A stretch of 13,531 nt of DNA, taken from a virus. This document shows, piece by piece, positions 1-13,234 of the stretch (positions are counted from its first letter, which is position 1; each line of letters opens with the position of its first letter). The notes beneath the pieces are model-generated. The model did no database searches and was not told the origin of the DNA. It saw nothing but the letters and a program-made list of their open reading frames with translations. Location: UHGV virus genome UHGV-0241990; one strand, 5' to 3'. The translations under genes were made by a program, and so were the position numbers.

Positions 1-829
1 CCACCATATCGCCTAACGCATGCGGCTGGAACTGTGGGACCAGATAAGCAGTATTCTCTGGCAGACTATCCATTTGCACCACACGCAGAGCTAAGCCCGG
101 AATGCGGAAGGTCGGGAAGCCCGGCAGAATATCCTCAGGGAACATCAGACCTTTGTCGGTAATATTCTGATTGCCGAACAACAGCACTTTACGGAGCAGT
201 TCATCAGTCTGAATTGCAGCAAAGAGCTCAGCACGGCAGAACAGGGTGAAACCACGCAGAGCGCGAACAACACCACGCTGTTTAACCTTGCTCAGTGCAA
301 CCAGGTCCTGCAGCTGTTTAAGGATATCTTGAGCTAGATCCACTTCTGAAGTGGTTTGCTGTGCGCCCAGCAGTTCGCACACATTCAGTTCTTTACCCTT
401 GGTAAGGATAATTTTGTTCTCAAAGAGAGCAAGCTGGCGTGCTTCTTCATGGGTCGCGCGTAGTCCTTCACCCAGTTGAATAACACGACGAGCGGTTACA
501 GACTCTAAATTCTCTTCGGAATCTTTGCCCGGAACACGGATACCTTGCCAGTCAGAAGGATAAATAGCACTTGATGCGGCAGTGAATGCCATATCACCCG
601 TGCCCGTTTCACGCTCATCTGCGGTAATGGTAGCCATCTGTTCACCGTAGCGCGGATACTGACCGAAAGCGGTTTGTTTCACCTGGCGAACTTTGTCATA
701 TTCAAATTTAAAGGTATTGCACAGGGCTGTAGTGTTGAAGATATCCATTGCTGAAATAATCTGGTTATCCAGCGGGATGTCTTTAATCAGACCACACAGA
801 TCGCGAACTTCAAATTCTTTCTTAGCCAT
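1..829 (-). CDS. putative major capsid protein (N-terminal ~276 codons; gene runs past window start)
   Basis: Minus-strand frame opens at ATG 829..827 and runs to position 1 with no stop (frame hand-checked over several segments). GGAGG Shine-Dalgarno at 840..836, 6 nt upstream. Begins MAKKEFEVRDL. Lies directly downstream of the decoration-like gene (lambda D-E type order). Capsid call is from context and protein character, not confirmed homology. Confidence 0.5.
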   Translation of the reverse strand, partial: MAKKEFEVRDLCGLIKDIPLDNQIISAMDIFNTTALCNTFKFEYDKVRQVKQTAFGQYPRYGEQMATITADERETGTGDMAFTAASSAIYPSDWQGIRVPGKDSEENLESVTARRVIQLGEGLRATHEEARQLALFENKIILTKGKELNVCELLGAQQTTSEVDLAQDILKQLQDLVALSKVKQRGVVRALRGFTLFCRAELFAAIQTDELLRKVLLFGNQNITDKGLMFPEDILPGFPTFRIPGLALRVVQMDSLPENTAYLVPQFQPHALGDMV

Positions 830-840
830 CTTCAACCTCC

Positions 841-1176
841 TTATTGTGCAACACGCAAATCGCCATTGCTGGCAGCAATAACAGCGGCTAAGCCTTCTTT
901 ATCCACGTAGGCCGGATTGATGTAGCAACCTTTGTTCGCAACAACGATAAAAGCGTCACCAACCTCAGCACGTTCTACAACCAGCAGCGGAGTTTTACCG
1001 GTGTGCGTTGCTTTAACGAATGTTTCAACCTCGCCTTCCTCAGTCACCACAACAACAGTGCCAGCCGGAATCTCAGCCTTAACTTTGTTTTTAATTTCAA
1101 CGTCGCGAATAGAAAATTGCTCATCTGCGGCGTATGAAATGATGTGTCCGCGTGTGCGGATAGTCATATCTCTCAT
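841..1176 (-). CDS. head decoration protein-like (lambda gpD / DUF2190-like), 111 aa
   Basis: ORF from track. AGGTGA SD just upstream of ATG at 1176; stop 841-843 abuts the SD of the next gene. Beta-rich core (PLLVVERAEVGDAFIVVANKGCYINPAYV) resembles the gpD-type decoration fold pattern (recalled, not searched). Confidence 0.55.
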   Translation of the reverse strand: MRDMTIRTRGHIISYAADEQFSIRDVEIKNKVKAEIPAGTVVVVTEEGEVETFVKATHTGKTPLLVVERAEVGDAFIVVANKGCYINPAYVDKEGLAAVIAASNGDLRVAQ

Positions 1177-1229
1177 TTGATCACCTGCGATTTAAATTAA
1201 CTCCCCTCAAAGAGTTCCGGTATAACCTC

Positions 1230-1620
1230 TCAAACCACGACAGGCTCGGGCCGAAAAGTTATGCCGGAAATCTAAAGGGAAATTGATACAAGGAGAGGGA
1301 GATAGCCCCGCACCGTAGCCAAGCGGGGGCTATTCCACATGGGGAAACCGACAACAGTCGGATGATAGTTCACAGTATGGGTTACGGTTACTAGAGAGCA
1401 CTATCACGAAAGGCACTCCCCCGGATCAGTTCAGGCTGCGGTCACATCAGCGGGGAAATACCTTTCGGGATAGCTACCCACACAGAAAACCCGCAAAAGA
1501 AAACTGTGTGGATAACTAGCCCAATAGGAGAATTAATCGACCACTCAACGATGATCAGGGTAGTGTTATTTATAAGGCGGCACCGCTACCTGGTCGCCTT
1601 TACTTTGGAGGAAAATACGG
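1230..1620. other. structured, ORF-free, locally GC-enriched segment (candidate leader or ncRNA)
   Basis: No ORF of 60 aa or more on either strand. Hairpin 1302-1333 (ATAGCCCC / GGGGGCTAT arms) and hairpin 1478-1511 (8-bp stem CCACACAG / CTGTGTGG). A 9/9 DnaA-box-like TGTGGATAA at 1507-1515. Confidence 0.25.
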
Positions 1621-1943
1621 CAAATCACTTTCACCATTGATTTACGGTATATGTATATTATATCAGTATTCTCTCAAATTGTCAACCCCCTTATTATATA
1701 AATTCTAATAATTAGCGTAGTAACGGTATTTTCAGACCTCTATCAATCCCATCAATACGTCATCTCATCGCATCTATCATAACTTTTTCATTCGTGATAG
1801 ATATCTTTTGATCAATATCAATGTTTTCCGGGGATTTACCCGGTTATAGTTCGAATCAAGGAAGGGTAGCATTGATAGAGACACCCAAAGGGGTGACTGA
1901 AAGTCACCTGGCATAGCCAGTGAAAGCACCCAACCGAGCAAAC

Positions 1944-1961
1944 AAATCAACTTCTCGCAAA
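1944..1961 (+). repeat. conserved 18-nt element AAATCAACTTCTCGCAAA, copy 1
   Basis: Identical to 2463-2480; ends exactly 11 nt before the ATG at 1973. Confidence 0.7.
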
Positions 1962-1972
1962 AGGTGATAGTT

Positions 1973-2095
1973 ATGGGTATCAAGAACAGTGCCAGCGCAT
2001 GGCAAAAGGCCAGGTTTCATCACCCACACATTGTTAAGGCAATTGAGGTGGTTGGAGTTTTAGCCCTGATGTTAGCTCTGTGTGTGGAGGTGTGA
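1973..2095 (+). CDS. small hydrophobic peptide, 40 aa (MGIKNSASAWQKARFHHPHIVKAIEVVGVLALMLALCVEV)
   Basis: Not in ORF track (below its apparent length cutoff). ATG 1973 with AAGGTGA SD 5 nt upstream; stop TGA 2093-2095. Basic N-terminus and predicted C-terminal TM helix. Preceded by the conserved 18-nt element. Confidence 0.4.
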   Translation: MGIKNSASAWQKARFHHPHIVKAIEVVGVLALMLALCVEV

Positions 2096-2173
2096 GATGG
2101 GCAAAGGAGGCAAAGTATTTTTAATAGGTCTGGCAGTCTTAGATTTTGTATTAATCATCATTGAGCGGAGTTT

Positions 2174-2434
2174 ATGACGGGAACTAAAGATATTAAGAGA
2201 CTGAGGGAAGAGCTGATAGCTGAAATTAAAGCTAAGGCAAAGCAAATGGAGATAGCCGCACAAATGGATGTAGCGGAACAGATGTACAAGATGGTTGAGG
2301 AGGGAACGCCACGACAGGTCATCGCTAAAACCTTCGGTGTGGGGATCGCCACCGTGCACAGAAGGCTAAAAGCCTATGCCGACTACCACAATATCGAAAG
2401 AAAGGAGGATGGGAGATTTAAGAAGAATAAATAG
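2174..2434 (+). CDS. small HTH DNA-binding protein, 86 aa
   Basis: ORF from track; GGAG SD before ATG 2174. Helical N-terminus followed by an HTH-like segment TPRQVIAKTFGVGIATVHRRLK (resolvase / sigma region 4-type pattern). Confidence 0.75.
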   Translation: MTGTKDIKRLREELIAEIKAKAKQMEIAAQMDVAEQMYKMVEEGTPRQVIAKTFGVGIATVHRRLKAYADYHNIERKEDGRFKKNK

Positions 2435-2462
2435 TGTGAACAGTCCACCAGGTTATTAACTT

Positions 2463-2480
2463 AAATCAACTTCTCGCAAA
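2463..2480 (+). repeat. conserved 18-nt element AAATCAACTTCTCGCAAA, copy 2
   Basis: Identical to 1944-1961; ends exactly 11 nt before the ATG at 2492; followed by GGGG SD-like bases. Confidence 0.7.
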
Positions 2481-2491
2481 GGGGTACCACT

Positions 2492-3202
2492 ATGTTTAAG
2501 GGAATTATTGTTACACTATTAGCTTGCATTGTATTTGGTCCATGGGTGTTAGTAATTGCTTTGCCTCTATTACTAGTGATGAGTGTAGGGAAAGATATTA
2601 AAAAGCTGCATGCACAATATAAAGAGCACCCTGGAGCAGTCATAACAAGTCTGGTTATAGTCGCGGGGCTTATTGGCTGGGCCTACTTCTCTCTTCCCAC
2701 AGGAAATACAGCTGCAAATGTGGAAGAGGTGAACTCACAGCATGAAGAAGTGGTTAACGTCTCCGATCTTACATGGGAGGACAGGGTAAAAGCATATAAA
2801 TATATTTATGGTGTGCTAGATTGCGATCTCTCTAAAGATATAGGATGCACAGATAAATACCAGATTCACGCCTGGCTGTGGAATCATGCAGAAAAAGGTG
2901 CTTGCAACCAGATTAAAGTGGCGGTTAACAGTGGGGCACCTACTGGGAAAAATAAAGATGTTCTGACGGTATGGTGCAAGGATGTAAAAGGCAATGATCG
3001 TTGGCTACAGATGCGCCACATGGACGGTGTAAGCATAGAAACTACACGAACGGCTCGATGGTATAACGGTGAACTCGTTCACGAAGCATGGCAGAATAAC
3101 GCCTGGATCACTGAGGGAACACTCCTGAATGTTGATATGGAAGCATTGAAGATGCTTAATGAGATGTACGGTGAAGCCGTAGAAACCTCTCCTATGAAAT
3201 AA
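2492..3202 (+). CDS. membrane-anchored protein, 236 aa (two N-terminal TM helices plus soluble Cys-containing domain)
   Basis: ORF from track. Hydrophobic stretches IIVTLLACIVFGPWVLVIALPLLLV and ITSLVIVAGLIGWAYF, then a ~170-aa hydrophilic domain with several Cys. Followed immediately by a strong terminator. Confidence 0.85.
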   Translation: MFKGIIVTLLACIVFGPWVLVIALPLLLVMSVGKDIKKLHAQYKEHPGAVITSLVIVAGLIGWAYFSLPTGNTAANVEEVNSQHEEVVNVSDLTWEDRVKAYKYIYGVLDCDLSKDIGCTDKYQIHAWLWNHAEKGACNQIKVAVNSGAPTGKNKDVLTVWCKDVKGNDRWLQMRHMDGVSIETTRTARWYNGELVHEAWQNNAWITEGTLLNVDMEALKMLNEMYGEAVETSPMK

Positions 3203-3218
3203 CCACACCAACCCACCA

Positions 3219-3245
3219 GGGGGCCATCACGGCCCCTTTTTTATT
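3219..3245 (+). terminator. rho-independent terminator
   Basis: GGGGCC (3220-3225) / GGCCCC (3231-3236) stem, ATCAC loop, then TTTTTTATTT; 17 nt after the stop of the 236-aa gene. Confidence 0.85.
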
Positions 3246-3248
3246 TAT

Positions 3249-3303
3249 CCCCTATTTAACCCCTATTTAATGGGTATTTAATGCCTATTTATTGATTTAA
3301 TGG
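3249..3303. repeat. five tandem 11-bp units with TATTTAA core
   Basis: cccctatttaa (3249), cccctatttaa (3260), tgggtatttaa (3271), tgcctatttat (3282), tgatttaatgg (3293). Period is one helical turn. Confidence 0.6.
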
Positions 3304-3783
3304 TTTTGGGCATTGTTGACAGTGTAAGAGAGAGGATGTAACCCTTTTTTGCAATACTAATAAAATCAATAGCTTAGCTCAATTGGCCTTTTCTCTATTT
3401 TTGTCAAATTTAACATACCCTCAAAAACTGCAAAATCTGGCTGCAAGATTATCTGCAGCTGGATTTCTTACACCTCAATTTGTAGTATCACCCTGACTAG
3501 TTTGTGCATAAAATGAACAGTTTTTAACATTTCCTATTCACCTGGTAACCACACAAAAAGCTAAAAACGAGGCACAGATAATCTTAGAGGCCTGTTTTCT
3601 TGTTATCACTCTGGGAACGTCGTAGAAGTGATTTTGATGAAAGATGACCTACCCTATTACACCCCCATTTTTTGTTATCACAATTGCATCCTGTGCGGTG
3701 TATGGCTGTGTGCTGAAAGCGGTCTTGGGTGTGGGTGTCAGAAATATCCATTAGCGGTATTAATACCCGTCAGATGTTCGTCT

Positions 3784-3820
3784 GAGGTGCCAGGCAGGCG
3801 CTCCCCCACCTCCCTTTTTT
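3784..3820 (+). terminator. orphan terminator-like hairpin plus T-run in non-coding DNA
   Basis: GAGGTG (3784-3789) pairs CACCTC (3807-3812) with GC-rich inner pairing, followed by CC TTTTTT (3815-3820). No annotated gene upstream on this strand. Confidence 0.4.
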
Positions 3821-4368
3821 CTTCTAACAATTCTCAAATATCACACCACTGCCGACCACGTTGCTATTATGTTAATTCTTAAGCTTTGCTGTATGTTGTG
3901 CACATTATTTATTCAGGTGGCTGTACGTAAATTCTGTGCCCACTGATCATGATTTTTAAATCAGATTTTGTAGTGCGCTTTATTAGTGTAGATAAGATCT
4001 ATTATGTTAAATGCAATTTTCCCAACCCTTCAAATCAATGACTTACATGTAAGCATGCACTAACACCCCACACAGCACATTAGACGTATAGATGGCTATA
4101 TCCCACATTTTTGATTGTTTTGTAGTCATTCCCCTGATCATTTAACCAGTATAGTTTGTTCTCTGTAGACCACAAAACCGGAATTTACATCTGATTAACA
4201 TAATCTGTTAGCATGATCACCATTACCCACACAACAATAACCCCATGCAAGCCTCTTCAGGCAATTTATCGGCGTGTTGGTGTGAACAGTCTTTCATGTT
4301 CTTTATGTATTCATTGTCCTGTGTGAGGGAAGGATGGACTGCCCCAGGGGCCATAGTTATGACACCCG

Positions 4369-4404
4369 GTCAACATAACTGTTGATAAAATCAACGGGTG
4401 TTGA
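4369..4404. promoter_or_regulatory. pair of palindromic operator-like sites TCAACA-N4-TGTTGA and ATCAAC-N4-GTTGAT
   Basis: 4369-4384 TCAACATAACTGTTGA and 4389-4404 ATCAACGGGTGTTGAT share half-site TCAAC / GTTGA; centres 20 bp apart. CCCCAGGGG palindrome at 4341-4349 just upstream. Confidence 0.45.
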
Positions 4405-4525
4405 TCTGCATATTTCCCACACATGAGAGAAAATCAAAGCAAAGAGAGAGGAGAGAGGTTTGCTAGTCAAAATAGGTCAATTGACGGCTAATACAGAGTA
4501 AAAAATCAGATGCAATCACTCCCCC

Positions 4526-4795
4526 ACCTGTTGGGATTTCCTACAACCCCTTTCAGTCATACTCAGGCACCACACCCCGGTAAATATTACCGCACTAACC
4601 TGTAAAGAATTTTCACACCTGTGTGTTTATACAGTCATACTCTCCTGTTTTGCAGTCATTGCACCCATGATACACAGCCCCTAACCTGTCAAAATATTTT
4701 ACTACCCCACCAATAATACGGCCCATACCTGTAAAATATTTTTACTACTACCTGTCAAAATCTTTTACTACTACCTGTAAAAATATTTGACACTA
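4526..4795. repeat. iteron array: ACCTGT-containing ~23-bp repeats with near-palindromic core GT(C)AAAATATTTTAC
   Basis: Well-conserved copies starting near 4598, 4684, 4727, 4750, 4773 (spacings 86, 43, 23, 23 bp). Degenerate ACCTGT/CCTGT copies at 4526, 4617, 4644. Inverted repeat CGGTAAATATTACCG at 4578-4592. Confidence 0.65.
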
Positions 4796-4825
4796 ATAGA
4801 TAAAGTAATAGACCACACAATAGAT

Positions 4826-4859
4826 CCCCCCCTAACCCCCCAGGGGGGAATGGGGAGGG
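4826..4859. repeat. homopolymer C/G tract palindrome (C7-TAA-C6-A-G6-AAT-G4-A-G3)
   Basis: Read directly: ccccccctaaccccccaggggggaatggggaggg. CCCCCC A GGGGGG centred at 4842. Shorter CCCCAGGGG relative at 4341-4349. Confidence 0.5.
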
Positions 4860-5377
4860 ATCAGAGAGTGGGGAAGGTTTTCTAAGGGAAAAGCTTAACC
4901 CACAAATGAAAGCCTAAAGAGCATTAGCGACTCTTTAGGCAATATGTGTGTGGGGGTGACAATGTATTCCATACATGACACGTCACCCAATTGTGTGTGG
5001 GAGTGCCTACGGCACCTTAGCCCATGGCTAAGCCCTTCGGGTCTGTGTGTGGTCCGGCGAATGCGTCAGCATGAGGCCCACATGTGGACCGCTGCCGAAA
5101 GCTTGCCAGCGCCGGAAGGAGGCAGCAAAGAGTCTCCCGCGCGGGTGCACGCACACATATATAAAGGATACACTCATAAATCGAAAATAAGCCCCCTAAA
5201 TGGCCTTCTGGCTGCATTAACTAGTGTGAGTAGTGCAATTGCATTACCTGACCTCTAAATCGCGTTAGAATCGATTTTAGAGCGCTTAAGGCAAAAAGTG
5301 CCCTCCCTTGTGGGCTTGCTTGTGTCTGCTGTGCAGGCTATGGCACCTATAGCACACCTAAATGATAATAATTCTCA

Positions 5378-5406
5378 TTGACAATTGGTTGACAATATGA
5401 TAAGAT
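5378..5406 (+). promoter_or_regulatory. sigma70-like promoter candidate P1 with duplicated TTGACAAT
   Basis: TTGACA 5378-5383, 17-bp spacer, TAAGAT 5401-5406 (4/6). A second TTGACAAT at 5389-5396, 11 bp downstream of the first. Confidence 0.4.
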
Positions 5407-5441
5407 TATAAATAGGGGGAGAAACAGATCCGGAGGTCAAT

Positions 5442-5591
5442 GTGGAAATTACTGATGCAATAGCGATCATCAACCTGGCTGTACTGTGGTGCGGTGTTGC
5501 CTACATAGCCGGAGTAACTGCAATCGACAATCTTGAAGAAAAAATGATAGATAAATACAAAAAGATTGTTGACAATTTGACGAATGTCTGA
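5442..5591 (+). CDS. small GTG-initiated ORF, 49 aa, predicted TM helix (VEITDAIAIINLAVLWCGVAYIAGVTAIDNLEEKMIDKYKKIVDNLTNV)
   Basis: GGAGG at 5432-5436, 5 nt before GTG 5442; stop TGA 5589-5591. Not in track (short, non-ATG start). Protein-like composition, unlike the antisense track ORF 5406..5606. Confidence 0.3.
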   Translation: MEITDAIAIINLAVLWCGVAYIAGVTAIDNLEEKMIDKYKKIVDNLTNV

Positions 5592-5597
5592 TAAAAT
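5569..5597 (+). promoter_or_regulatory. near-consensus sigma70 promoter P2 for the plus-strand operon
   Basis: TTGACA 5569-5574, exactly 17-bp spacer, TAAAAT 5592-5597; predicted start ~5604, giving a ~120-nt leader before ATG 5725. Confidence 0.6.
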
Positions 5598-5724
5598 ATA
5601 AAGCATAGGGTAATTCTCATCATAGTGAATTTCCTTTAGTAGACTGGCGGGGGCTTGTCTTAAGTTCCCGTTTCTTTTTAATCATATATCGCACAGGTTA
5701 GTGAGCTAACAGGAGGCTTATACT

Positions 5725-5940
5725 ATGGCTAAAACCGGACCGATCAGCCAGCTGGTAAACTGGACTACTGACGAAATCGTCGAGAACGTACTTAAGGGGA
5801 ACTTCCGCAAAACTTCCGTTTATGCATTCATTCGTAAACATAAAGGAGAATATCCACACATTGAAGAAGCAATTTTAAAACTAAATTGCATTCGCCTTGA
5901 GCGGGAACTGGCTAAATACACCAATAACATTAATAAATAA
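5725..5940 (+). CDS. hypothetical small protein, 71 aa
   Basis: ORF from track; AGGAGG SD 5711-5716, 8 nt before ATG 5725; first gene downstream of P2. Confidence 0.7.
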   Translation: MAKTGPISQLVNWTTDEIVENVLKGNFRKTSVYAFIRKHKGEYPHIEEAILKLNCIRLERELAKYTNNINK

Positions 5941-5953
5941 TTATGGGGGAATT

Positions 5954-6820
5954 ATGGCAAGTAATTACGGGGAAAATTTTACTCCCCTTTTTAAACGTTT
6001 CATCAAATACATTTTTAAAAATCCGATTGCAAAAACTACAACCAATAAAGAAAGATTTCACTTAAACTTGTTGGAAATGACAATTTACGGTGAGATGGCA
6101 AGTTTTAATGCTGCAGGTTGTGAAATATTTATCTCTGAACAGAGATTAGCAGACGATTATGATGTTTCAAGACCGACAGTTATTAACTCGATTAAATCTC
6201 TAGAAAATGCCGGGCTTATTTCAATAGTTAAAAGTAAAGGCAAATCTAATCATTACAAACTGCTAATTACCCCTGATCAGCTTGGCAAGATGTGTGATGA
6301 GCAGGGTATTAAAACCTCCGACAGTGTGGGATCTAGTAAAGAGGCCCCCGATAATCAACAGGAAGCCCCAAAACAACCCACACAGCAAGCTAAAAAGGCC
6401 GAGGTGGTGCAATTGCCTACCCAACCTAAGAACGAGCGCAGAGAGCGCTTTAGAGACGCTGGCAAACGTGAGAAAGATGAGCACGGTTATCCGATTCTGA
6501 CAAGTGATGAGATGAACGCCAAATACAAAGGGATTCAGGCAACATTTAAGGATCGGAAGAGCATTAAACTCTCTGAATTGCGAGATGCATTTTACGGGCC
6601 GGAGGTGATGGATAAAATTAAAGGCACCGTTGAGGGTAGAATCTGGAAAGAAGATGATTATTGGCATTTAACAGAACAGGCCCTTAAGGTGGCTCAACAT
6701 GTAGCTAAAAGAGGTAAAACAATTATCATCGATTATATTAGTCATGGCTATGATGCCCCGAAAGAAAGATTGTGGAACAACTGCAAGCTTGTAAAAGGCG
6801 AATTAACCATTACAAAATAA
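5954..6820 (+). CDS. winged-HTH DNA-binding protein, candidate replication initiator or iteron-binding regulator, 288 aa
   Basis: Track ORF 5897..6820; start moved to in-frame ATG 5954 (GGGGGA upstream, avoids 44-nt overlap with previous gene). HTH segment ISEQRLADDYDVSRPTVINSIKSLENAGLISIVK, a Q/P/K/E-rich linker, then a distinct C-terminal domain. Lies ~1.2 kb downstream of the iteron array. Confidence 0.8.
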   Translation: MASNYGENFTPLFKRFIKYIFKNPIAKTTTNKERFHLNLLEMTIYGEMASFNAAGCEIFISEQRLADDYDVSRPTVINSIKSLENAGLISIVKSKGKSNHYKLLITPDQLGKMCDEQGIKTSDSVGSSKEAPDNQQEAPKQPTQQAKKAEVVQLPTQPKNERRERFRDAGKREKDEHGYPILTSDEMNAKYKGIQATFKDRKSIKLSELRDAFYGPEVMDKIKGTVEGRIWKEDDYWHLTEQALKVAQHVAKRGKTIIIDYISHGYDAPKERLWNNCKLVKGELTITK

Positions 6821-6859
6821 ACATTCTTATTTTTTACAGTATTCTAAAGGAAATTTAAA

Positions 6860-7006
6860 ATGTATGGCGATCTTGATTATTACCTGGAAAAGGAAAAATA
6901 TTTTGAAGATGAACTATCACAACATTTTTCATATTGGGAAGAATATTGTGGTTGGTTAGCTGAAGATCCAGCAGATGAAGAAAATGATTCTGACATCCCT
7001 TATTAA
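6860..7006 (+). CDS. tiny acidic protein, 48 aa (MYGDLDYYLEKEKYFEDELSQHFSYWEEYCGWLAEDPADEENDSDIPY)
   Basis: Not in track (short). AAGGA SD 8 nt before ATG 6860; stop TAA 7004-7006. Fills the otherwise empty gap between flanking genes. Strongly acidic with aromatic residues. Confidence 0.45.
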   Translation: MYGDLDYYLEKEKYFEDELSQHFSYWEEYCGWLAEDPADEENDSDIPY

Positions 7007-7104
7007 TTAATATCCCCTGTTATCCCCAAACAAACTAAATAAACAAACTAAGCACTAGAACTAGATTGATTGCCCTGATCTTTTAAACGTTCGGAGAATT
7101 AATC

Positions 7105-7593
7105 ATGTTCAAATCTGATCTTTCTGATTCCCAATTTGAAAAACTGGTAGCACTGCAGAAATATCTCCCCAGTGATGATCAACCAACACGACAGGCTAAA
7201 CACTTATTAGTCGAGGGCTTTACCCCTGAATTCGTGGCGGAATATACAGGCGTTAAACTTGAGAAAGTCCAAAAACTATATAATGAGTCCTGGAATCCAC
7301 GGTGTCGAGTTCCCCTCAGTGTCTACAACGAAATAGATAGAGATAGAAATGTCTTCGAAGATCGCCGCCGCAAATCTCTTTTAATGTGGAATTGTGGGAT
7401 GAATATTGAAGAGATAGCAAAAGAATTAAAAGTAACCTGCTTTCATATCTGGGGCTTGTTGAGTGAAATCCTGCCACGTAAGGAGCTTAATCAACGTTTG
7501 CCTAAGCCCGGTAGTCGTGCTTATCGCGAATTTATATTCATCTACCGCCGCCATAGAAATAAAGTCCAGAAAGCAATGGCCCAGAAAGCCTAA
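7105..7593 (+). CDS. putative DNA-binding protein with two sigma region 4-like HTH segments, 162 aa
   Basis: ORF from track; GGAG SD 8 nt before ATG 7105. HTH-like segments FTPEFVAEYTGVKLEKVQKL and MNIEEIAKELKVTCFHIWGLLSEIL; basic C-terminus. Confidence 0.8.
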   Translation: MFKSDLSDSQFEKLVALQKYLPSDDQPTRQAKHLLVEGFTPEFVAEYTGVKLEKVQKLYNESWNPRCRVPLSVYNEIDRDRNVFEDRRRKSLLMWNCGMNIEEIAKELKVTCFHIWGLLSEILPRKELNQRLPKPGSRAYREFIFIYRRHRNKVQKAMAQKA

Positions 7594-7666
7594 GTTTTAT
7601 CTCTTCGATTTATTTATTTTCGACTCACTTTAACCCCTTCCGGGGCTCTAATTTAAGGAATTCCAA

Positions 7667-8110
7667 ATGTCTCAAATCGCTAAATTATTATCCCAGGTAA
7701 TCAAAGCTTTCGACGCTGAAGATTCAAAAGTTCGCCAGGATCTTTTAGATGGCAAGTTTACCAACACCCTGGCATTTACCCGTGACAAAGAGCACTTCTT
7801 AAAACACAGACACCACGCTTTTGCTGAATGCAAGTCCGCTAATGGTGATGTTTTCTATGTCGATTTGGTGGTTATGGCATGTAGGCTGTGGATGATTCAG
7901 GACCTTATGCGCCAACACGGTGATGATCCTCTTATCAGCATGTGGAACAGCGCCCAGGATGGCTTTGTGATTGCTGCCTTATCCAAATCAATGATTGAGG
8001 CAGAAGGGGCAAGCCTTCAGAACATGGCAGATCTCTTTGAAATAAGCGTAGGAATGATGCAGACCATGCTCCAAGCTGTCAAACCTCTCAAACTGGTTAA
8101 TCTTGATTAA
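7667..8110 (+). CDS. hypothetical protein, 147 aa
   Basis: ORF from track; AAGGA SD 7 nt before ATG 7667. No recognisable motif. Confidence 0.8.
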   Translation: MSQIAKLLSQVIKAFDAEDSKVRQDLLDGKFTNTLAFTRDKEHFLKHRHHAFAECKSANGDVFYVDLVVMACRLWMIQDLMRQHGDDPLISMWNSAQDGFVIAALSKSMIEAEGASLQNMADLFEISVGMMQTMLQAVKPLKLVNLD

Positions 8111-8170
8111 GCTATTGATAAATAAGCACTCCCCATTTTTTGGGGGGTGCATCAATGAGAGGATATGCCT

Positions 8171-8554
8171 ATGAATATTGAAGAAATGATAGTTGAATTC
8201 GAAGAGGGTGATTTCCTGGAAGAAGGGGAGTTTAGTTACTCCCATTTTAAACAGGCGTTATTTAGCAGCGATGATAAACCACACGTTAGTGATCTTAACG
8301 ACGATGATTTATGTCGTTGGGTATGCACCCGCTTAAATGAAGATGGAAAGTATACAGGCCAAAACTTTCCAAATCTCTATTTCAAAGCACAAACATTTGA
8401 GGAAGGGCAAAGAGTGAAAAACCTGGTCGATAAAATGCTGTCAGCCGGATATTTGCATAAAGAATTATTAAATCCTAAAGCTGAAAGCAAGCGCCATTAT
8501 ATTTTTGTGTGGACTATTGGCGATAAGTGTCCACTAAGACGCAAAGGCAAATGA
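8171..8554 (+). CDS. hypothetical acidic protein, 127 aa (129 aa if started at 8165)
   Basis: Track ORF 8165..8554. GAGAGGA at 8157-8163 is only 1 nt from ATG 8165 but 7 nt from ATG 8171, so 8171 preferred. Stop TGA 8552-8554 lies 1 nt before the next ATG. Confidence 0.7.
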   Translation: MNIEEMIVEFEEGDFLEEGEFSYSHFKQALFSSDDKPHVSDLNDDDLCRWVCTRLNEDGKYTGQNFPNLYFKAQTFEEGQRVKNLVDKMLSAGYLHKELLNPKAESKRHYIFVWTIGDKCPLRRKGK

Positions 8555-8555
8555 T

Positions 8556-8792
8556 ATGAATATCTACGAAAAGATTTATCAAAAACTGGTTAAGGACTCC
8601 GAAGACACGCCCGAAGGGGTGACAATAGGTCACCTGCCAGAGGCAGCGAAAGAGGGGTCCACCATTATTAAAAGTAGCTCCCACACAGAAGGCCTCTCAA
8701 TCGAAGAGCTGGCGGAGAAATATAATATTGATAAAGAGGCCCTGAAAAGGGCTATTTCATTATCAAAATCTTTAAGACAGGGCGAGGTATAA
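8556..8792 (+). CDS. hypothetical protein, 78 aa
   Basis: ORF from track; tightly packed between neighbours (stop 8790-8792, next ATG 8794), consistent with translational coupling. Confidence 0.7.
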   Translation: MNIYEKIYQKLVKDSEDTPEGVTIGHLPEAAKEGSTIIKSSSHTEGLSIEELAEKYNIDKEALKRAISLSKSLRQGEV

Positions 8793-8793
8793 A

Positions 8794-10935
8794 ATGGCAA
8801 TGAAGGAAGTAGCCAGACTAACAAACGTTATTTACTGGGACTCTGATAAATCCTCCTGGCGAAAAGAAGTTAAACGGCTTGAGGATTATAAAAAATCCTG
8901 GAAGAAAGCTACCGACGATATAGCTAAAGCTGATTTTAAATCTAATCAGGCTGTGCTCAGAACACAAAGAACACGCGCTAAGGTGGAAGAGCAGATAGCC
9001 AGAGCTCAGAGGAAACAACAGGAAGCACAGAAGAAACAACGTGCTCAGGCTGTCAGCCGTCTGACCGGGGGCAACAATGCCGAACTTAACTCTATGCGCA
9101 AGTTCTACCAACAACAAGCCAGAGAAGCCGCCAGACAACAAAAACTGTTAGATCGTAGTGTTGGAGATGTTCAGCACAGAAAAGCACGTGTAGGGGCCAA
9201 CAGTGCACGAATCAGCAGCATGTTTGATGGATCCCTGGTTGCTCAGTTCCAAAGCAGAATCCAGAGAGTTAATGCTGATTATGCTAAAGGGGCTATTAAC
9301 CTGCAGACCTATAATCAGAAAATGGCCCGACTCAGAGCTGAAATGAAGATGGCCTCTAGAGATGCCACCACCTTTCAAAGCAAGCTAGATAAACTGGCAG
9401 CAGGTGCGAGCAAGGTGCATAACAATATCGGCAAGCTTAACAGTGCTTTAGGCAAGATAGCCATTGGCCTGACCGCTGCAGGATGGGGTATTCAGAGAGC
9501 TGTTAGTGGTGCTATGAGCGCTCAATCTGACCATAACTCAGCCTATTATGGTTTGCTTGCTCAGAACAAGGATGATAAAGCCAAGACTGACCAGCAGATG
9601 GCTTTTATCGAGAACACAGCCAACACCTACGGGATGGATCAGCGTGAGATGGAGGGTGGCTATATGCGTTTTGCTGCCGCTACTCCCACCATGAAGGAAT
9701 CTGATAAGCAGGCTCTTTTTGAGGCTATGGCGATTAAAGGCCGCTCAGTGGGTGCTACTGGCGAGCAACAGAACAGGGCGCTTGTTGCGGTCCAACAAAT
9801 GGCTTCAAAAGGAAGAGTAGCTGCGGAAGAGCTGCGTGGCCAGCTGTCAGAAGCCTTTGCAGGCTCACAACAGGATTTTCAACAGGCCGCTATTGATGCC
9901 GGAATCATCAAGAGTGCCCAGGAATTCGATAAAGCCATGGCAGATGGCAAAATCACCCTGGACAAGCTTCTTCCCTCTCTAGTGAAAATCTGGGGTGCTG
10001 CAAAAGAAACTGACGCTTTTGCTAAATCTATGCAACAGCCTGAAGTGGCACTGCAGAGAATGAGCAACCAGTTTTTTAAACTAAAGCAATCCTTTATGGG
10101 TGTTGTGGATCCTGCGGATGGCGTCATTACCCTGTCAGAATCCCTTATTTATATCTTTGAAGATTTATCCTCAATTTTCAGTAGCTCAGGTGAAGATGCC
10201 AAATCTCTCGGAGTTATGTTAGGCGAGGCAATGCATGAAATTTATTTTTGGGTCAACTGGGCTTGGTGGTGGACTAAGAAGATCGCCAAAGGCATTGGTG
10301 AGACGTTAGGCTGGACCGCACAGGATGCAGGCGAGAAGATTGGCCAGGTTGTGACCGCCCTGTTAGGCCTGAAGGTTGCAACAAGCATTGCTGGCATGGT
10401 TGGCGGCCTTATTTCCATGCTGTGGAAACTTAAAGCGGCGCTTAGTGCTTTAGTCGGTGTTGGTGATATCAGCACTGGAGGCACAGCAGGCAAAGGCAGA
10501 CCAGGTAGAGGCGGCTTTATCGGGAAAGCAGGCAGACTTGGAGGAAGATTTGCAGGTCCGGCAGGGATTGTTTTGACAGGATTTGACATTGCAAATAGCT
10601 TAGATTCCTACTGGCAGAATCCTGATAATCAGCGGCAGGAAGGAGCTAAACATCCTGAATGGTTAACCAGTATGGTTAATAGTGCTTCTAGCTTCCTTGG
10701 CCTTGATTATCGTCTGGACGCAGGACGCTACATTACCAGACCAACACCAACGGGTGGTATTGCTATTCAGAATGGAGGCTATCAGCCGACTCAAATCAGT
10801 GTAGTTCCGCAGGGTGAGATCTCCGGCAAGTGGGAGATAACCATTGATGAGGGGGGAATTGCCAGGGTGATCCAGAAGGAAGTCAGCGATCAGCTGGATT
10901 GGAAAGCCACACAGGAAGCTAATCAGCTTTTCTAA
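8794..10935 (+). CDS. tape-measure-like protein, 713 aa
   Basis: ORF from track. Long charged Q/K/R/E-rich helical N-terminus; central segment GEQQNRALVAVQQMASKGRVAAEELRGQLSEAFAG resembling the conserved tape-measure domain (recalled). Hydrophobic segments (VVTALLGLKVATSIAGMVGGLISMLW) and a Gly-rich stretch (GGTAGKGRPGRGGFIGKAGRLGGRFAG). Confidence 0.8.
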   Translation: MAMKEVARLTNVIYWDSDKSSWRKEVKRLEDYKKSWKKATDDIAKADFKSNQAVLRTQRTRAKVEEQIARAQRKQQEAQKKQRAQAVSRLTGGNNAELNSMRKFYQQQAREAARQQKLLDRSVGDVQHRKARVGANSARISSMFDGSLVAQFQSRIQRVNADYAKGAINLQTYNQKMARLRAEMKMASRDATTFQSKLDKLAAGASKVHNNIGKLNSALGKIAIGLTAAGWGIQRAVSGAMSAQSDHNSAYYGLLAQNKDDKAKTDQQMAFIENTANTYGMDQREMEGGYMRFAAATPTMKESDKQALFEAMAIKGRSVGATGEQQNRALVAVQQMASKGRVAAEELRGQLSEAFAGSQQDFQQAAIDAGIIKSAQEFDKAMADGKITLDKLLPSLVKIWGAAKETDAFAKSMQQPEVALQRMSNQFFKLKQSFMGVVDPADGVITLSESLIYIFEDLSSIFSSSGEDAKSLGVMLGEAMHEIYFWVNWAWWWTKKIAKGIGETLGWTAQDAGEKIGQVVTALLGLKVATSIAGMVGGLISMLWKLKAALSALVGVGDISTGGTAGKGRPGRGGFIGKAGRLGGRFAGPAGIVLTGFDIANSLDSYWQNPDNQRQEGAKHPEWLTSMVNSASSFLGLDYRLDAGRYITRPTPTGGIAIQNGGYQPTQISVVPQGEISGKWEITIDEGGIARVIQKEVSDQLDWKATQEANQLF

Positions 10936-10980
10936 CTGGTTGATAATAAAAGCCCCTCGGGATTTGTCATCCTTTGGGGC

Positions 10981-10992
10981 TCAACTTCTCGC
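10981..10992 (+). repeat. third copy of the core TCAACTTCTCGC
   Basis: Exact 12-nt match to the core of the 18-nt element at 1944 and 2463; lies just after a hairpin (10953-10981) downstream of the tape-measure-like gene. No start codon at the 11-nt distance. Confidence 0.5.
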
Positions 10993-11389
10993 CTGGCAAG
11001 TGTGATCATCTGCAGAGAGAAAGTCAACTCTCTTTCTGTTCACGTTTGATCATTCATACCGTTTGTTTTATATTCATCAGTGGAAACAGATCCCAGAGGT
11101 TAACGCGACCTCTAAGAGAAAATAAGCGTCTATGATCTGGAGTATCTTGTAGAGCACTGGGCTTGATGCGGCCTCACCCTAACCAAGGTGATAAACAGGC
11201 AAACGTTGGTGGTTCTGCTCTCTTACCCGGCAATAAGTGATAAGCCAAAACTAAGAGATGCCCACACGGTTTCACCGCACCGGAATATAAGCAGGTACCT
11301 GATAAAGCTGATCTACATGAAAACCTGAAAACCCCTAAATGATGCTAGTGTTTCTCCTTACCACCAACACGGCATCAAAAAGAGTTCTA

Positions 11390-11418
11390 TTGTCTGAATT
11401 CAGGATTTTGGCTATAAT
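11390..11418 (+). promoter_or_regulatory. sigma70-like promoter for the 49-aa ORF
   Basis: TTGTCT 11390-11395, 17-bp spacer, perfect TATAAT 11413-11418. Confidence 0.55.
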
Positions 11419-11452
11419 GTAGGCGTAGCAGGTCATAAGAAGGGGTGACACT

Positions 11453-11602
11453 ATGAAGAATGCCAATGCCATTAAGCGAAATAACCGCAAGATTCACGCT
11501 CGCAAGTTTCTCAAGACTGAAGAAGGCCGGAAATGGTTAGAAGAGAAGCAGAAGGAACGGCAGGAGATAAAGCTTGTGCGGGAATTATCCCAGTTTATCT
11601 AA
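11453..11602 (+). CDS. small basic protein, 49 aa (MKNANAIKRNNRKIHARKFLKTEEGRKWLEEKQKERQEIKLVRELSQFI)
   Basis: Not in track (short). AAGGGGTGA SD before ATG 11453; stop TAA 11600-11602. Own promoter and terminator. Confidence 0.6.
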   Translation: MKNANAIKRNNRKIHARKFLKTEEGRKWLEEKQKERQEIKLVRELSQFI

Positions 11603-11612
11603 TCTCAGAGAG

Positions 11613-11639
11613 AGGGGCTATCAGGCCCCTTTCTTGTCT
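11613..11639 (+). terminator. rho-independent terminator
   Basis: AGGGGC (11613-11618) / GCCCCT (11625-11630) stem, 6-nt loop, then TTCTTGTCT. Overlaps the stop codon of the convergent minus-strand gene. Confidence 0.6.
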
Positions 11640-13209: not shown

Positions 13210-13234
13210 CTCAAAAACTTAAGACGGGGATAAT

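What the first reader, a model, noticed from the sequence alone, without database searches (positions are those of the whole stretch)
1180..1950. Structured ORF-free region upstream of the head genes
About 770 bp lacks convincing ORFs and contains several stable hairpins (1302-1333; 1478-1511 with an 8-bp perfect stem; 1891-1909 GGTGACT / AGTCACC) plus a 9/9 DnaA-box-like TGTGGATAA at 1507-1515. The 1240-1620 part is locally GC-enriched compared with the surrounding AT-rich DNA. The head module therefore starts abruptly at the decoration gene, with no scaffold, protease or portal gene immediately upstream. The region may hold a late promoter and leader, an ncRNA, or a replication or packaging element.
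Basis: seen in the sequence. Interest (0 to 1): 0.45.

Follow-up and report, generated by a model that had tools for sequence, protein, structure and literature searches.

The report
Satellite plasmid's structured regulatory RNA gene
The apparently empty stretch holds a perfect bacterial promoter that should make a roughly 350-base folded RNA, conserved in a small family of phage-like E. coli plasmids. This RNA most likely keeps the element's virus-particle genes silent, by pairing with the start of a distant regulator gene and by stopping transcription just before the capsid genes.

Summary
Window 1177-1973 has no conserved ORF, is locally GC-rich at 1240-1620, and contains the three hairpins and the TGTGGATAA site.

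The organising feature is on the minus strand. A 12/12 sigma-70 promoter with an extended -10 (1685->1657) is followed by a ~350-nt structured RNA (about 1650->1296). The RNA ends in a strong hairpin (1336->1298) about 120 nt before the 111-aa gene and the capsid gene.

Promoter, RNA architecture and 3' hairpin recur in four lineages of a 13-14.7 kb E. coli plasmid family. In two of them the hairpin is a canonical intrinsic terminator. Compensatory changes and G.U pairs fit only this strand.

An accessible segment (1538->1527) is complementary to the ribosome-binding site of a distal gene, p162 (7105-7593, a putative HTH protein). This complementarity is kept through entirely different sequences in all four lineages.

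I read it as a c4/CI/SviR-like regulatory RNA that also acts as a terminator-gated leader of the capsid operon. No expression data exist.

The DnaA-like box is not conserved. The 1891-1909 hairpin lies in a dispensable 48-nt mobile element shared with rV5-like phages. The replication origin (iterons) is elsewhere.

There is no Rfam match. The host element looks like an undescribed plasmid-borne satellite of Vequintavirus phages.

The parts
1657..1685 (-). Promoter P1: TTGACA (1685-1680), 17-nt spacer, TG-extended TATAAT (1662-1657). The predicted transcription start is about 1650.
   Evidence: A 12/12 consensus match with TG. It is conserved in every lineage, including those about 55% identical in the RNA. 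It is one of three look-alike promoters, TTGACAAT-N12-TGATAnAAT, in the element.
1291..1650 (-). Predicted structured RNA of about 350 nt, either an sRNA or the leader of the capsid operon.
   Evidence: Fold z = -4.0. Counterparts give z = -4.0 and -4.3. In 17 variants, 55 consensus pairs are 97.7% paired, and 12 pairs show changes on both sides. Of all cells, 17% are G.U, so only 80.7% would pair on the other strand. There is no Rfam match.
1615..1650 (-). 5' hairpin A, which varies between lineages. It is followed by a CU-rich single strand, UUUUCCUCC (1615-1607).
   Evidence: Single-sequence folds. A CU-rich segment is present at the same place in the L005 and L027 lineages.
1574..1600 (-). 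Hairpin B, with the loop CCAGGUAGCGGUG.
   Evidence: The loop is invariant in the 17 aligned variants, including the L005 group, and the stem shows a G-C to C-G swap. The deepest lineage, L027, has an analogous hairpin with a different loop.
1562..1575 (-). Conserved single-stranded motif UUAUAAAUAACACU. It contains a TATAAATA match.
   Evidence: Conserved apart from one base in the L005 group. The TATAAATA count in the window is 4, against 0.74 expected. Its function is unknown.
1527..1538 (-). Seed: RNA 5'-GAUUAAUUCUCC-3', complementary to the ribosome-binding site of p162.
   Evidence: A 12-nt perfect complement of 7093-7104. P(unpaired) is 0.79, against 0.40 for the whole RNA. The homologous segment pairs with the same gene's start region in L014, L005 and L027.
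1475..1514 (-).
   Evidence: The pairs are kept in the 17 aligned variants, while the TTATCCACA box degrades to TTATCCATG, TTATCCATA and ATATCTACC. Both arms carry the element-wide motif CCCACACA.
1400..1474 (-). Helix D, a long irregular hairpin and the best-conserved helix.
   Evidence: 18 + 6 pairs. Eight pairs carry compensatory changes. The helix is kept in the deepest lineage, L027, with further compensatory changes.
1348..1361 (-). Small hairpin F (CCGAC/GUCGG).
   Evidence: A G-C to A-U swap is seen in 6 of 14 variants. The hairpin is absent in the L005 group.
1298..1336 (-). 3' hairpin of the RNA, terminator-like. Here it is followed by a C-rich tail, not a U-run.
   Evidence: The stem is conserved, with a G-C to C-G swap. 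In L005 the homologous hairpin is followed by UUUUUUU, and in L027 by UAUUUUUUU. Both are canonical intrinsic terminators.
1177..1297 (-). Variable spacer and 5'UTR of the 111-aa gene. It contains a C-rich tail, a long hairpin (about 1204-1275) and the SD GGUGAU.
   Evidence: Its length runs from about 60 nt (L005) to about 350 nt (L027), with lineage-specific insertions. No sigma-70-like promoter was found here.
841..1176 (-). The 111-aa gene, first gene of the minus-strand operon. It is followed by the major capsid gene, which runs across the window ends.
   Evidence: ORF list. RefSeq annotation of relatives. The protein family contains only five clusters, all from E. coli.
1879..1926 (.). 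48-nt triple-hairpin insertion.
   Evidence: It is present here only in the window and L002, and absent at this site in L001, L011-L014 and L005. It is about 90% identical to a site in 33 Vequintavirus-type phage records. No copy was found in L012, L013, L005, L007 or L027.
1828..1843 (+). Conserved hairpin CCGGGGAUUUACCCGG with the flanking AAGGAAGGG. It may be part of the plus-strand promoter or operator region.
   Evidence: Conserved in the L005 group, with changes in the loop. It was flagged as terminator-like on the plus strand. Its function was not resolved.
1935..2095 (+). Invariant 5'UTR and SD (1935-1973), and the conserved 40-aa hydrophobic ORF sm40 (1974-2095). This ORF is the first gene of the plus-strand operon.
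   Evidence: The block ACAAATCAACTTCTCGCAAAAGGTGATAGT is identical in lineages whose intergenic region is only about 61% identical. The ORF is conserved at the protein level in the window-like lineages, L014 and L005.
7093..7107 (+). Predicted target site: SD, spacer and AUG of p162 (GGAGAAUUAAUC AUG).
7105..7593 (+). p162, the predicted target gene. It is an all-helical protein with two HTH-like units.
   Evidence: Homologues are 43-83% identical across the lineages. AlphaFold pLDDT is 78. Similarity to known folds is weak only: sigma, LuxR and ParB types by Foldseek at E >= 0.3, and LuxR/NarL-type HTH by profile at E 0.09-1. No promoter or terminator separates it from the Rep gene.

Best explanation
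The region is the control region of the element, and its core is an RNA gene on the minus strand. A constitutive sigma-70 promoter (1685->1657) transcribes a ~350-nt RNA built from conserved hairpins. The RNA ends at a terminator-type hairpin (1336->1298) placed between the promoter and the capsid operon (111-aa gene, then the major capsid gene).

I propose two linked activities.

(1) In trans. An exposed segment just 5' of helix C pairs with the Shine-Dalgarno and start region of p162, a putative HTH regulator. p162 lies 5.5 kb away, downstream of the Rep gene and upstream of the tail genes. Pairing would block its translation. By polarity it could also lower expression of the tail genes behind it, while Rep is still made for plasmid maintenance.

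(2) In cis. Because the only recognisable promoter upstream of the capsid genes is followed by a terminator, capsid transcription needs read-through. That gates these genes until some signal arrives, presumably infection by an rV5-like helper phage.

What is shown by computation: the promoter, the conserved strand-specific structure, the terminator position, and the covarying complementarity. What is inferred: that the RNA is made, repression, polarity, and relief by a helper.

My estimates: a functional structured RNA exists, 0.85; it pairs with p162, about 0.55; terminator gating of the capsid operon, about 0.5.
For: Promoter. A 12/12 match with TG, kept in all four lineages.

Structure. Fold z-scores run from -4.0 to -5.3 on this strand in three lineages. 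Of all cells, 97.7% are paired. Twelve pairs changed on both sides, against 0-4 in the slid controls, and 0/500 shuffles reached the observed values. G.U pairs make the fold strand-specific: 97.7% paired, against 80.7% on the other strand. Helix D is kept with new compensatory pairs in the deepest lineage.

Terminator. Canonical hairpin plus U-run in L005 and L027 at the homologous 3' end.

Design repeated elsewhere. A look-alike promoter, P3 (5569-5597), is followed by a ~75-nt leader and an intrinsic terminator before the Rep operon. L011 has the same layout with an unrelated leader sequence.

Trans pairing. The window has a 12-nt perfect match at -12..-1 of p162. L014 has 16-18 contiguous pairs, including an A-U to U.G double change. 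L005 has 11-12 pairs formed from unrelated sequence. L027 has 22 pairs spanning -18..+7. With the segment and the target fixed in advance, p is about 0.01 for L005, <= 0.002 for L027 and <= 0.005 for L014. Cognate duplexes average -20.5 kcal/mol and non-cognate ones -12.1. The cognate RNA is the best partner for every target. The seed is accessible, P(unpaired) 0.68-0.86, in three lineages.

Non-coding. No ORF is conserved.
Against: There is no expression data of any kind.

In the window's own lineage the 3' hairpin is followed by a C-rich tail rather than a U-run. Intrinsic termination there is uncertain.

Only about four independent lineages exist, so each covariation event is counted few times.

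The window pairing was found post hoc. Its own p is only 0.02-0.07 by energy.

Within an element, other start regions reach similar or better duplex energies with the same segment. In the window these are the p111 5'UTR at -27.4 and p49 at -22.3. In L005, p162 is not among the top four.

L012 carries a naturally mismatched pair, 9 bp + 5 bp.

The seed is about half structured in L014 and L027.

The same complementarity is, at DNA level, a direct repeat. It could therefore be a shared protein-binding site.

The function of p162 is unknown.

No antiterminator protein and no conserved alternative (antiterminator) fold was identified.
Confidence: 0.55

Rival explanations
1. Purely cis-acting leader. 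The structured RNA is only the 5' leader of the capsid operon. It would be an attenuator or a processive-antitermination signal (in the manner of lambda PR'-6S-tR' with Q, or an HK022 put-like RNA). The complementarity to p162 would be coincidental or a DNA-level repeat.
For: The promoter, long leader, terminator and first structural gene are collinear in all lineages. P3 shows the same layout of promoter, terminator and operon. A second -10-like element lies directly after the -10 in all three promoters, as at sigma-dependent pause sites of lambdoid late promoters (the comparison is from my own knowledge). Other start regions give duplex energies similar to that of p162.
Against: No Q-like or N-like gene was recognised. 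No conserved alternative pairing competing with the terminator was found. The spacer between the terminator and the gene is hypervariable. This rival does not explain why the segment 5' of helix C tracks the p162 start region through four unrelated sequences.
Confidence: 0.22
2. Stand-alone non-coding RNA with another job. It might act on helper-phage transcripts or sequester a protein, as the PLE sRNA SviR acts on ICP1 mRNAs. p162 would not be the main target.
For: It has its own consensus promoter and, in two lineages, its own canonical terminator. It has loops or single strands that are highly conserved (CCAGGUAGCGGUG invariant in the 17 aligned variants; UUAUAAAUAACACU) with no partner found inside the element. 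This suggests an external ligand.
Against: No significant complementarity or similarity to the genome of Vequintavirus phage naam was found. The best match was 14 nt at E 0.7, in a non-conserved part of the RNA. There is no Rfam family.
Confidence: 0.12
3. DNA-level element. The hairpins are inverted repeats that bind proteins: the motif CCCACACA, the DnaA box, or operators for the HTH proteins. Alternatively they form part of an origin or a packaging site.
For: There is a perfect DnaA box at 1507-1515. DnaA-like 9-mers are enriched, 13 against 3.7 expected. CCCACACA is enriched, 18 against 2.3 expected, and both arms of helix C carry it. TGATAG inverted repeats lie at 1765-1800. The 48-nt element is shared with the helper phage.
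Against: The box and the motif in helix C are lost in other lineages while base pairing is kept. G.U pairs make the structure specific to one strand. The iterons and Rep are elsewhere. The 48-nt element is absent from several complete relatives.
Confidence: 0.07
4. No function: a decaying pseudogene or junk spacer whose hairpins arose by chance.
For: The RNA sequence is only 53-55% identical between lineages. Insertions and deletions are frequent.
Against: The consensus promoter is retained everywhere. Changes are compensatory. Fold z-scores are about -4 in three lineages. Several loops are invariant in the 17 aligned variants.
Confidence: 0.04

Closest known systems
c4 antisense RNA of phages P1 and P7 (immI operon; Rfam C4 family)
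   Same: It is a constitutively made, structured RNA of a plasmid-borne phage element. It pairs with the ribosome-binding region of a gene at the head of a lytic-function operon. In P1, C4 RNA controls Ant expression together with Icd (PMC8201110, introduction, citing Citron and Schuster 1990). From my own knowledge: translational repression of icd causes Rho-dependent termination before ant. That is the polarity mechanism I propose for p162 and the tail genes.
   Different: There is no sequence or structure match to the Rfam C4 model. c4 is about 77 nt and is processed from the same transcript that it regulates. This RNA is about 350 nt, has its own promoter, lies 5.5 kb from its proposed target on the other strand, and sits as a leader in front of the capsid operon.
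CI RNA and the leader of satellite phage P4 (termination-based immunity)
   Same: It is a satellite that can live as a plasmid. A constitutive promoter is followed by a structured leader. Gene silencing is by premature termination, not by a protein repressor at the promoter (own knowledge).
   Different: P4 CI pairs with sites (seqA, seqC) in its own leader to cause termination. Here the covarying partner is the start region of a distal gene. No internal seqA/seqC-like repeats were found. There is no homology.
SviR, the trans-acting sRNA of the Vibrio cholerae satellite PLE
   Same: It is a satellite-encoded sRNA, conserved across all members of the satellite family, that regulates satellite operons and structural-gene expression by base pairing (bioRxiv 10.1101/2022.04.08.487710, abstract). 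The helper ICP1 and rV5 share replication-protein relatives (PMC3606486).
   Different: SviR is induced on infection and also targets helper mRNAs. Here the promoter looks constitutive, and no helper target was found. There is no sequence relationship.
Lambda late control: PR' promoter, 6S RNA, tR' terminator and Q antiterminator
   Same: A strong constitutive promoter is followed by a terminator directly upstream of the head and tail genes, so that late genes depend on read-through (own knowledge). A -10-like repeat lies just downstream of the -10.
   Different: Lambda 6S RNA is 194 nt and has no conserved elaborate fold or trans target. No Q gene or Q-binding element was identified here.

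Membership tests
Any described RNA family (Rfam 15, including C4 antisense RNA, put, 6S, riboswitches, tmRNA, RNAI) | Score at or above the family's gathering threshold against its covariance model | tested here: not met
   There were 0 hits at gathering thresholds over the whole window. In 1100-2100 at E <= 10, only five chance-level eukaryotic or unrelated hits appeared, at 15-20 bits against thresholds of 36-75. ARAGORN found no tRNA or tmRNA.
Trans-acting base-pairing sRNA | Own promoter and a defined 3' end (terminator) | tested here: met
   Consensus promoter. Canonical terminators in L005 and L027. In the window lineage the hairpin lacks a U-run, so for the window itself this feature is inconclusive.
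Trans-acting base-pairing sRNA | Accessible seed complementary to the translation-initiation region of a target, maintained by covariation | tested here: met
   Four lineages with unrelated seed sequences keep the same target. Cognate duplexes average -20.5 and non-cognate ones -12.1 kcal/mol. Caveat: within an element, the target's rank is not exclusive.
Trans-acting base-pairing sRNA | The RNA accumulates and changes target expression; chaperone (Hfq/ProQ) dependence | not testable with these tools
   This needs Northern or RNA-seq data, reporter fusions and RIL-seq.
Terminator-gated leader (attenuator or processive antitermination) | Terminator between the promoter and the first gene of the operon | tested here: met
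   No other sigma-70-like promoter lies between 1298 and 1177.
Terminator-gated leader (attenuator or processive antitermination) | A conserved alternative (antiterminator) fold, or an identifiable antiterminator factor or site (Q/QBE, N/nut, put) | tested here: inconclusive
   GAUAGU can pair with either GCUAUC (helix D base, all lineages) or ACUAUCA (window-like lineages only). No fold competing with the terminator is conserved. No Q or N homologue appeared in Pfam or PHROGs scans of the ten plus-strand ORFs and the 111-aa gene.
DnaA-dependent origin / DnaA-box regulatory site | A conserved DnaA box or boxes next to an unwinding element or iterons | tested here: not met
   There is a single perfect box. 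It is degraded in L011-13, L014 and L005. The iterons and Rep are 3-4 kb away.
Helper-type packaging site (cos/pac mimic, as in P4 or PICIs) | A sequence shared with the helper and present in all functional members | tested here: not met
   The only shared DNA is the 48-nt element. No copy is found in L012, L013, L005, L007 or L027. A pac site elsewhere in the element is not excluded.

The most novel reading that the evidence does not exclude
The RNA is the immunity switch of a so far undescribed class of plasmid-borne satellites of virulent rV5-like (Vequintavirus) myoviruses.

One constitutive ~350-nt RNA would hold the element in its plasmid state in two ways. It would block translation of the p162 regulator, silencing the tail genes behind it by polarity while Rep is still made. 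It would also terminate its own transcript in front of the capsid genes.

Helper infection would relieve both blocks. The element would then build particles from its own capsid and tail parts together with the helper's portal, terminase and remaining parts.
Probability: 0.3. Interest if true: 0.75.

Novelty: new member of a known kind. Interest (0 to 1): 0.55.

Why it matters
If the RNA works as proposed, it would be an RNA-based on/off switch for particle genes in a plasmid-borne phage parasite of E. coli. It would be independent in sequence from the classic c4 and CI RNAs and from SviR. This would add weight to the idea that satellites and phage-plasmids repeatedly settle on antisense and termination control.

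It also gives a simple handle on the element. Seed and compensatory mutations offer a direct test of how a 13.5-kb element stays quiet as a plasmid and wakes up on infection. That element carries only a capsid protein, a tape measure and a few tail proteins related to rV5-like phages.

Such elements are currently annotated as non-mobilizable cryptic plasmids. A recent review notes that plasmid satellites are expected but almost unknown (PMC12282955).

Tried and rejected
- Rfam at gathering and at permissive thresholds, and ARAGORN: nothing.
- Megablast of the region against 50,697 phage records: nothing. The sensitive blastn found only the 48-nt element.
- Exact-pattern scans for the most conserved RNA motif (CAGGTAGCGGTG-N8-ATAAATAACAC) in viral, genome and metagenome contig collections: no hits. 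The family appears confined to E. coli plasmids.
- Protein searches with the 111-aa protein and the capsid protein found only this element family. The deepest lineage came from the p162 search instead.
- Leader-peptide idea. A frame ending at the conserved UAA is open in many variants. It lacks a start codon in L011, L013 and L014 and has no SD, and the conserved part is invariant at nucleotide level. Rejected.
- T4-type late-promoter idea for TATAAATA at 1567-1574. rV5 phages lack gp55, gp33 and gp45. Their late motif is TggTAaAAtA, that is, an extended -10 sigma-70 type (PMC3606486). The motif reads AATAAATA in L005. Not pursued.
- Search for partners of the invariant loops inside the element: none.
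- Whole-RNA RNAduplex against all start regions was uninformative, because long gapped duplexes gave a background mean of -36 kcal/mol. I replaced it with tests on a fixed segment and a fixed target.
- Complementarity of the helix C loop (CUUUUGCG) to the sm40 leader (CGCAAAAG): 9-11 pairs. It is conserved, but both partners are invariant, so there is no covariation to test. Left open.
- Pairing of the seed with the p111 5'UTR occurs only in the window lineage.
- Similarity of the RNA to the genome of helper phage naam: none.
- Function of p162: Pfam, PHROGs, NCBIfam, PDB sequence and profile searches, AlphaFold and Foldseek gave only weak HTH, LuxR or sigma-like hints.
- No covariance model was built. 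The RNA exceeds the practical calibration size, and BLAST and pattern evidence already showed one copy per element.
Full report
WHAT THE WINDOW IS

The 13,531-base window is a complete circular replicon cut open at an arbitrary point. Its two ends are contiguous in a 13,280-bp RefSeq plasmid.

Seven of 5,426 complete E. coli genomes carry a 94-98% identical copy of the region, always on plasmids of 13.3-13.7 kb. One is a 39.6-kb trimer. PLSDB types these plasmids as non-mobilizable.

Annotation and profile scans give the following genes:
- a lambda-O/DnaD-like replication initiator (5897-6820);
- an HTH protein (2174-2434);
- a tape measure protein (8794-10935);
- a Dit-like baseplate protein;
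- a major capsid protein that runs across the window ends.

There is no portal, terminase or protease gene.

Three proteins have clear relatives in the virulent rV5-like phage naam (Vequintavirus):
- the Dit-like protein, 44.7% identical, E 7e-62;
- a 152-aa protein, 44% identical, E 5e-35;
- the tape measure protein, 26% identical, E 7e-14.

The element therefore looks like a plasmid-borne satellite of such phages. I found no paper describing it. A 2025 review states that only one plasmid satellite has been demonstrated. This is context, not the finding itself.

CHECK OF THE OBSERVATION

The region lies between two divergent gene sets. On the minus strand are the 111-aa gene (start 1176), the capsid gene and three further genes. 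On the plus strand the first gene is a small ORF, not the HTH gene.

No ORF of 30 aa or more in 1177-1973 is conserved in relatives. A 40-aa hydrophobic ORF starting at 1974 is conserved at the protein level, and it sets the true right limit.

The stretch folds far better than shuffled sequence, and asymmetrically. The minus strand of 1180-1660 gives z = -5.3 and the plus strand gives z = -2.7.

THE ORGANISING FEATURE: A PROMOTER AND AN RNA ON THE MINUS STRAND

A perfect sigma-70 promoter lies at 1685->1657 on the minus strand: TTGACA, a 17-nt spacer and TATAAT, with the TG of an extended -10. It points at the GC-rich, hairpin-rich stretch and at the capsid operon behind it.

To test conservation I collected relatives through the flanking proteins. 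The 111-aa protein and the capsid protein exist only in this element family. Their contigs gave three lineages whose intergenic regions are 91%, 80% and 61% identical to the window. A search with p162 later gave a fourth, deeper lineage of 14.7 kb.

In all four lineages the promoter is retained. It is followed by 350-370 nt with the same order of elements:
- a variable 5' hairpin;
- a CU-rich single strand;
- hairpin B;
- a single-stranded stretch;
- helix C;
- the long helix D;
- a 3' hairpin.

These are documented.

In the L005 and L027 lineages the 3' hairpin is followed by a run of seven U, so it is a canonical intrinsic terminator. In the window's lineage the hairpin is stronger but is followed by a C-rich, G-poor tail.

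On 17 distinct variants the consensus structure has 55 pairs, and 97.7% of cells are paired. Twelve pairs carry changes on both sides, against 0-4 when partners are slid by 1-3 columns. No shuffle out of 500 reached the observed values.

Seventeen per cent of cells are G.U. On the opposite strand only 80.7% would pair. This argues for an RNA of minus-strand sense rather than a DNA cruciform.

The RNA cores of three lineages, 53-55% identical in sequence, each fold with z of about -4.

There is no match to any Rfam family, even at E <= 10.

- The hairpin at 1302-1333 is the 3' terminator-type hairpin of the RNA.
- The hairpin at 1478-1511 is the top of helix C.
- The DnaA-like box (1507-1515) lies in the 5' arm of helix C. 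It degrades to TTATCCATG, TTATCCATA and ATATCTACC in other lineages while the pairing is kept. It also overlaps one copy of a motif, CCCACACA, that is strongly enriched throughout the element: 18 hits against 2.3 expected.
- The origin is much more likely at the four 22-nt iterons, 4684-4794, upstream of Rep.
- The hairpin at 1891-1909 belongs to a 48-nt insertion (1879-1926). At this site the insertion is present only in the window and one relative.

The 48-nt insertion recurs elsewhere:
- in frame inside a small ORF at 8606-8653, where it adds 16-17 residues;
- three times in L014;
- at about 90% identity in an ORF-free region of 33 Vequintavirus-type phage records.

It is absent from several complete relatives. 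These points rest. It is therefore a dispensable small mobile palindromic element. It is not part of the conserved machinery and is unlikely to be the packaging site.

A COVARYING PARTNER ELSEWHERE IN THE ELEMENT

I scanned for complementarity between the RNA and the rest of the element. The longest perfect match was 12 nt. RNA 5'-GAUUAAUUCUCC-3' (1538->1527, immediately 5' of helix C) pairs with GGAGAAUUAAUC at 7093-7104, which is the Shine-Dalgarno sequence and spacer directly before the AUG of p162.

On its own this could be chance, because CU-rich segments match many ribosome-binding sites. I therefore fixed two things in advance: the RNA segment (the 35 nt before helix C plus the first 3 nt of its 5' arm, 38 nt in all) and the target (-35..+10 of the p162 homologue). 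I then asked whether the other lineages keep a duplex.

They do, with unrelated sequences:
- L014 has GAUUAGGUCUCCUAUU against AAUAGGAGAUUUAAUC. This gives 16-18 contiguous pairs, with one A-U to U.G double change relative to the window.
- L005 has UUUUUCCAAAAU against AUUUUGGAAGAG.
- L027 has GUGAUCUCAUUGUUAAAUCCCUUGAA against UUUAAGAGAUUUACCAAUAUGAUCAC. This gives 22 pairs spanning -18..+7.

Shuffle tests (p from shuffled RNA segment / shuffled start region) give the following:

| Lineage | Duplex energy (kcal/mol) | p by duplex energy | p by contiguous run |
|---|---|---|---|
| L027 | -22.0 | 0.002 / <0.001 | not run |
| L014 | -23.2 | 0.005 / 0.001 | <=0.0002 |
| L005 | -17.4 | 0.012 / 0.006 | about 0.003 |
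| window | -19.5 | 0.073 / 0.020 | about 0.001 |
| L012 | -15.8 | 0.059 / 0.034 | about 0.02 |

In a 4 x 4 matrix the cognate RNA is the best partner of every target. The means are -20.5 kcal/mol for cognate pairs and -12.1 for non-cognate pairs. The seed is predicted to be largely unpaired in three lineages.

There are weaknesses:
- Within an element other start regions reach similar energies with the same segment.
- One recombinant, L012, carries a partly mismatched pair.
- At DNA level the complementarity is a direct repeat, so it could be a shared protein site.

I put the trans interaction at about 0.55.

THE TARGET AND A PLAUSIBLE LOGIC

p162 homologues are 43-83% identical across the lineages. 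The predicted fold is all-helical with two HTH-like units, at pLDDT 78. Its only resemblances are weak: sigma, LuxR and ParB types by Foldseek at E >= 0.3, and LuxR/NarL-type HTH domains by profile at E 0.09-1. Its function is therefore open. It could be a regulator or a small-terminase-like protein.

p162 lies after Rep and a 48-aa ORF and before the putative tail genes and the tape measure gene. No promoter or terminator lies in between. It is probably on the same transcript as Rep, from a look-alike promoter P3 (5569-5597).

P3 is itself followed by a ~75-nt leader and an intrinsic terminator. In L011 the same layout is kept with an unrelated leader sequence.

So the element repeatedly places terminators between strong constitutive promoters and its operons.

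The reading I prefer is as follows. In the plasmid state the abundant RNA blocks p162 translation and, by polarity, lowers tail-gene expression while Rep is still made. The RNA's own terminator keeps capsid transcription low. This is how the c4 RNA of P1 and P7 works on icd-ant (PMC8201110 for C4, Icd and Ant; the Rho-polarity step is from my own knowledge). It also resembles the termination-based immunity of satellite P4 and the satellite sRNA SviR of PLE (bioRxiv 10.1101/2022.04.08.487710). What relieves the block is unknown.

COMPARISON WITH KNOWN SYSTEMS, AND NOVELTY

The RNA works like a member of the class of phage and satellite regulatory antisense RNAs and leaders. It is not a member of any described family, because the covariance-model tests failed.

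It differs from c4, CI and SviR in four ways:
- its size (about 350 nt);
- its own consensus promoter;
- a target on the other strand, 5.5 kb away;
- its position as a terminator-ended leader of the capsid operon.

I class it as a new member of a known kind. The host element may be the more novel object.

LIMITS

Everything here is computational. There are only four lineages, all from E. coli. The transcription start, the 3' end and any regulation remain to be shown.

The plus-strand promoter of the divergent operon was not identified with confidence. The candidates are a TTCACC-18-TATATT site at 1630-1659 that overlaps P1 and a weak site around the conserved hairpin at 1828-1843.

Noticed in passing
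whole window (1-13531); relatives L001, L002, L005-L014, L027, L028, L032: The window is a complete 13.5-kb circular E. coli plasmid. It has its own Rep and iterons, a capsid protein, a tape measure, and Dit-like and 152-aa proteins 26-45% identical to those of rV5-like phage naam. It has no portal, terminase or protease. It looks like an undescribed plasmid-borne satellite of virulent Vequintavirus phages. I found it in 7 of 5,426 complete E. coli genomes, once as a trimer.
   Followed up: partly
window 1879-1926 and 8606-8653; L014 about 5476, 7811 and 9900; phage naam about 100067 and 102217: A 48-nt element of three consecutive short hairpins (CACCC-GAA-GGGTG, GGTGACC-NNN-GGTCACC, CTGGC-NNN-GCCAG) behaves as a small mobile insertion. 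It is variably present, and when it sits in frame inside a small ORF it adds 16-17 residues. It is shared at about 90% identity with 33 Vequintavirus-type phage records.
   Followed up: partly
window 1477, 1505, 2023, 2081, 4067, 4226, 4416, 4947, 4994, 5853, 6377, 8506, 8680, 12772: The motif (C/T)CCACACA is about eight-fold enriched (18 hits with up to 1 mismatch, against 2.3 expected). In relatives it forms tandem triplets about 50 nt apart in the large ORF-free region. An inverted pair flanks the small ORF at 1974-2095 in three lineages. It is probably a protein-binding site, and it may explain the excess of DnaA-box-like 9-mers.
   Followed up: partly
window 5378-5406 and 5569-5680: Two further promoters are nearly identical to the one in the finding (TTGACAAT-N12-TGATAnAAT). 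The second is followed by a ~75-nt leader and an intrinsic terminator (5646-5680) just before the 71-aa and Rep operon. One relative (L011) keeps this layout with an unrelated leader sequence.
   Followed up: partly
window 3203-4943: A second, larger ORF-free region of 1.7 kb. It contains four 22-nt iterons (4684-4794), A/T-rich repeats (3242-3291), several DnaA-like 9-mers and G-rich palindromes (3203-3238, 4824-4851). It is the probable origin, plus other unexplored elements.
   Followed up: partly
window 1974-2095 and 2097-2177: Two small hydrophobic ORFs (40 and 26 aa) precede the HTH gene. The first is conserved at the protein level across lineages, and its 5'UTR is invariant. The loop of helix C in the RNA (CUUUUGCG) is complementary to that leader (CGCAAAAG). 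Both partners are invariant, so covariation cannot be tested.
   Followed up: partly
phage naam (MN850630) 99218-101710; L003 2155-4647: rV5-like phages carry a ~2.5-kb ORF-free region between convergent gene blocks. It is marked 'non-coding' in the rV5 genome paper and holds the phage copy of the 48-nt element. I did not examine what else it encodes.
   Followed up: no
L027 1-958 (capsid gene): In the deepest lineage the capsid protein hits Pfam Phage_cap_E (lambda gpE type). The window's capsid protein has no Pfam hit, and its only phage match is a 23% identical capsid protein of a 144-kb Serratia myovirus.
   Followed up: no
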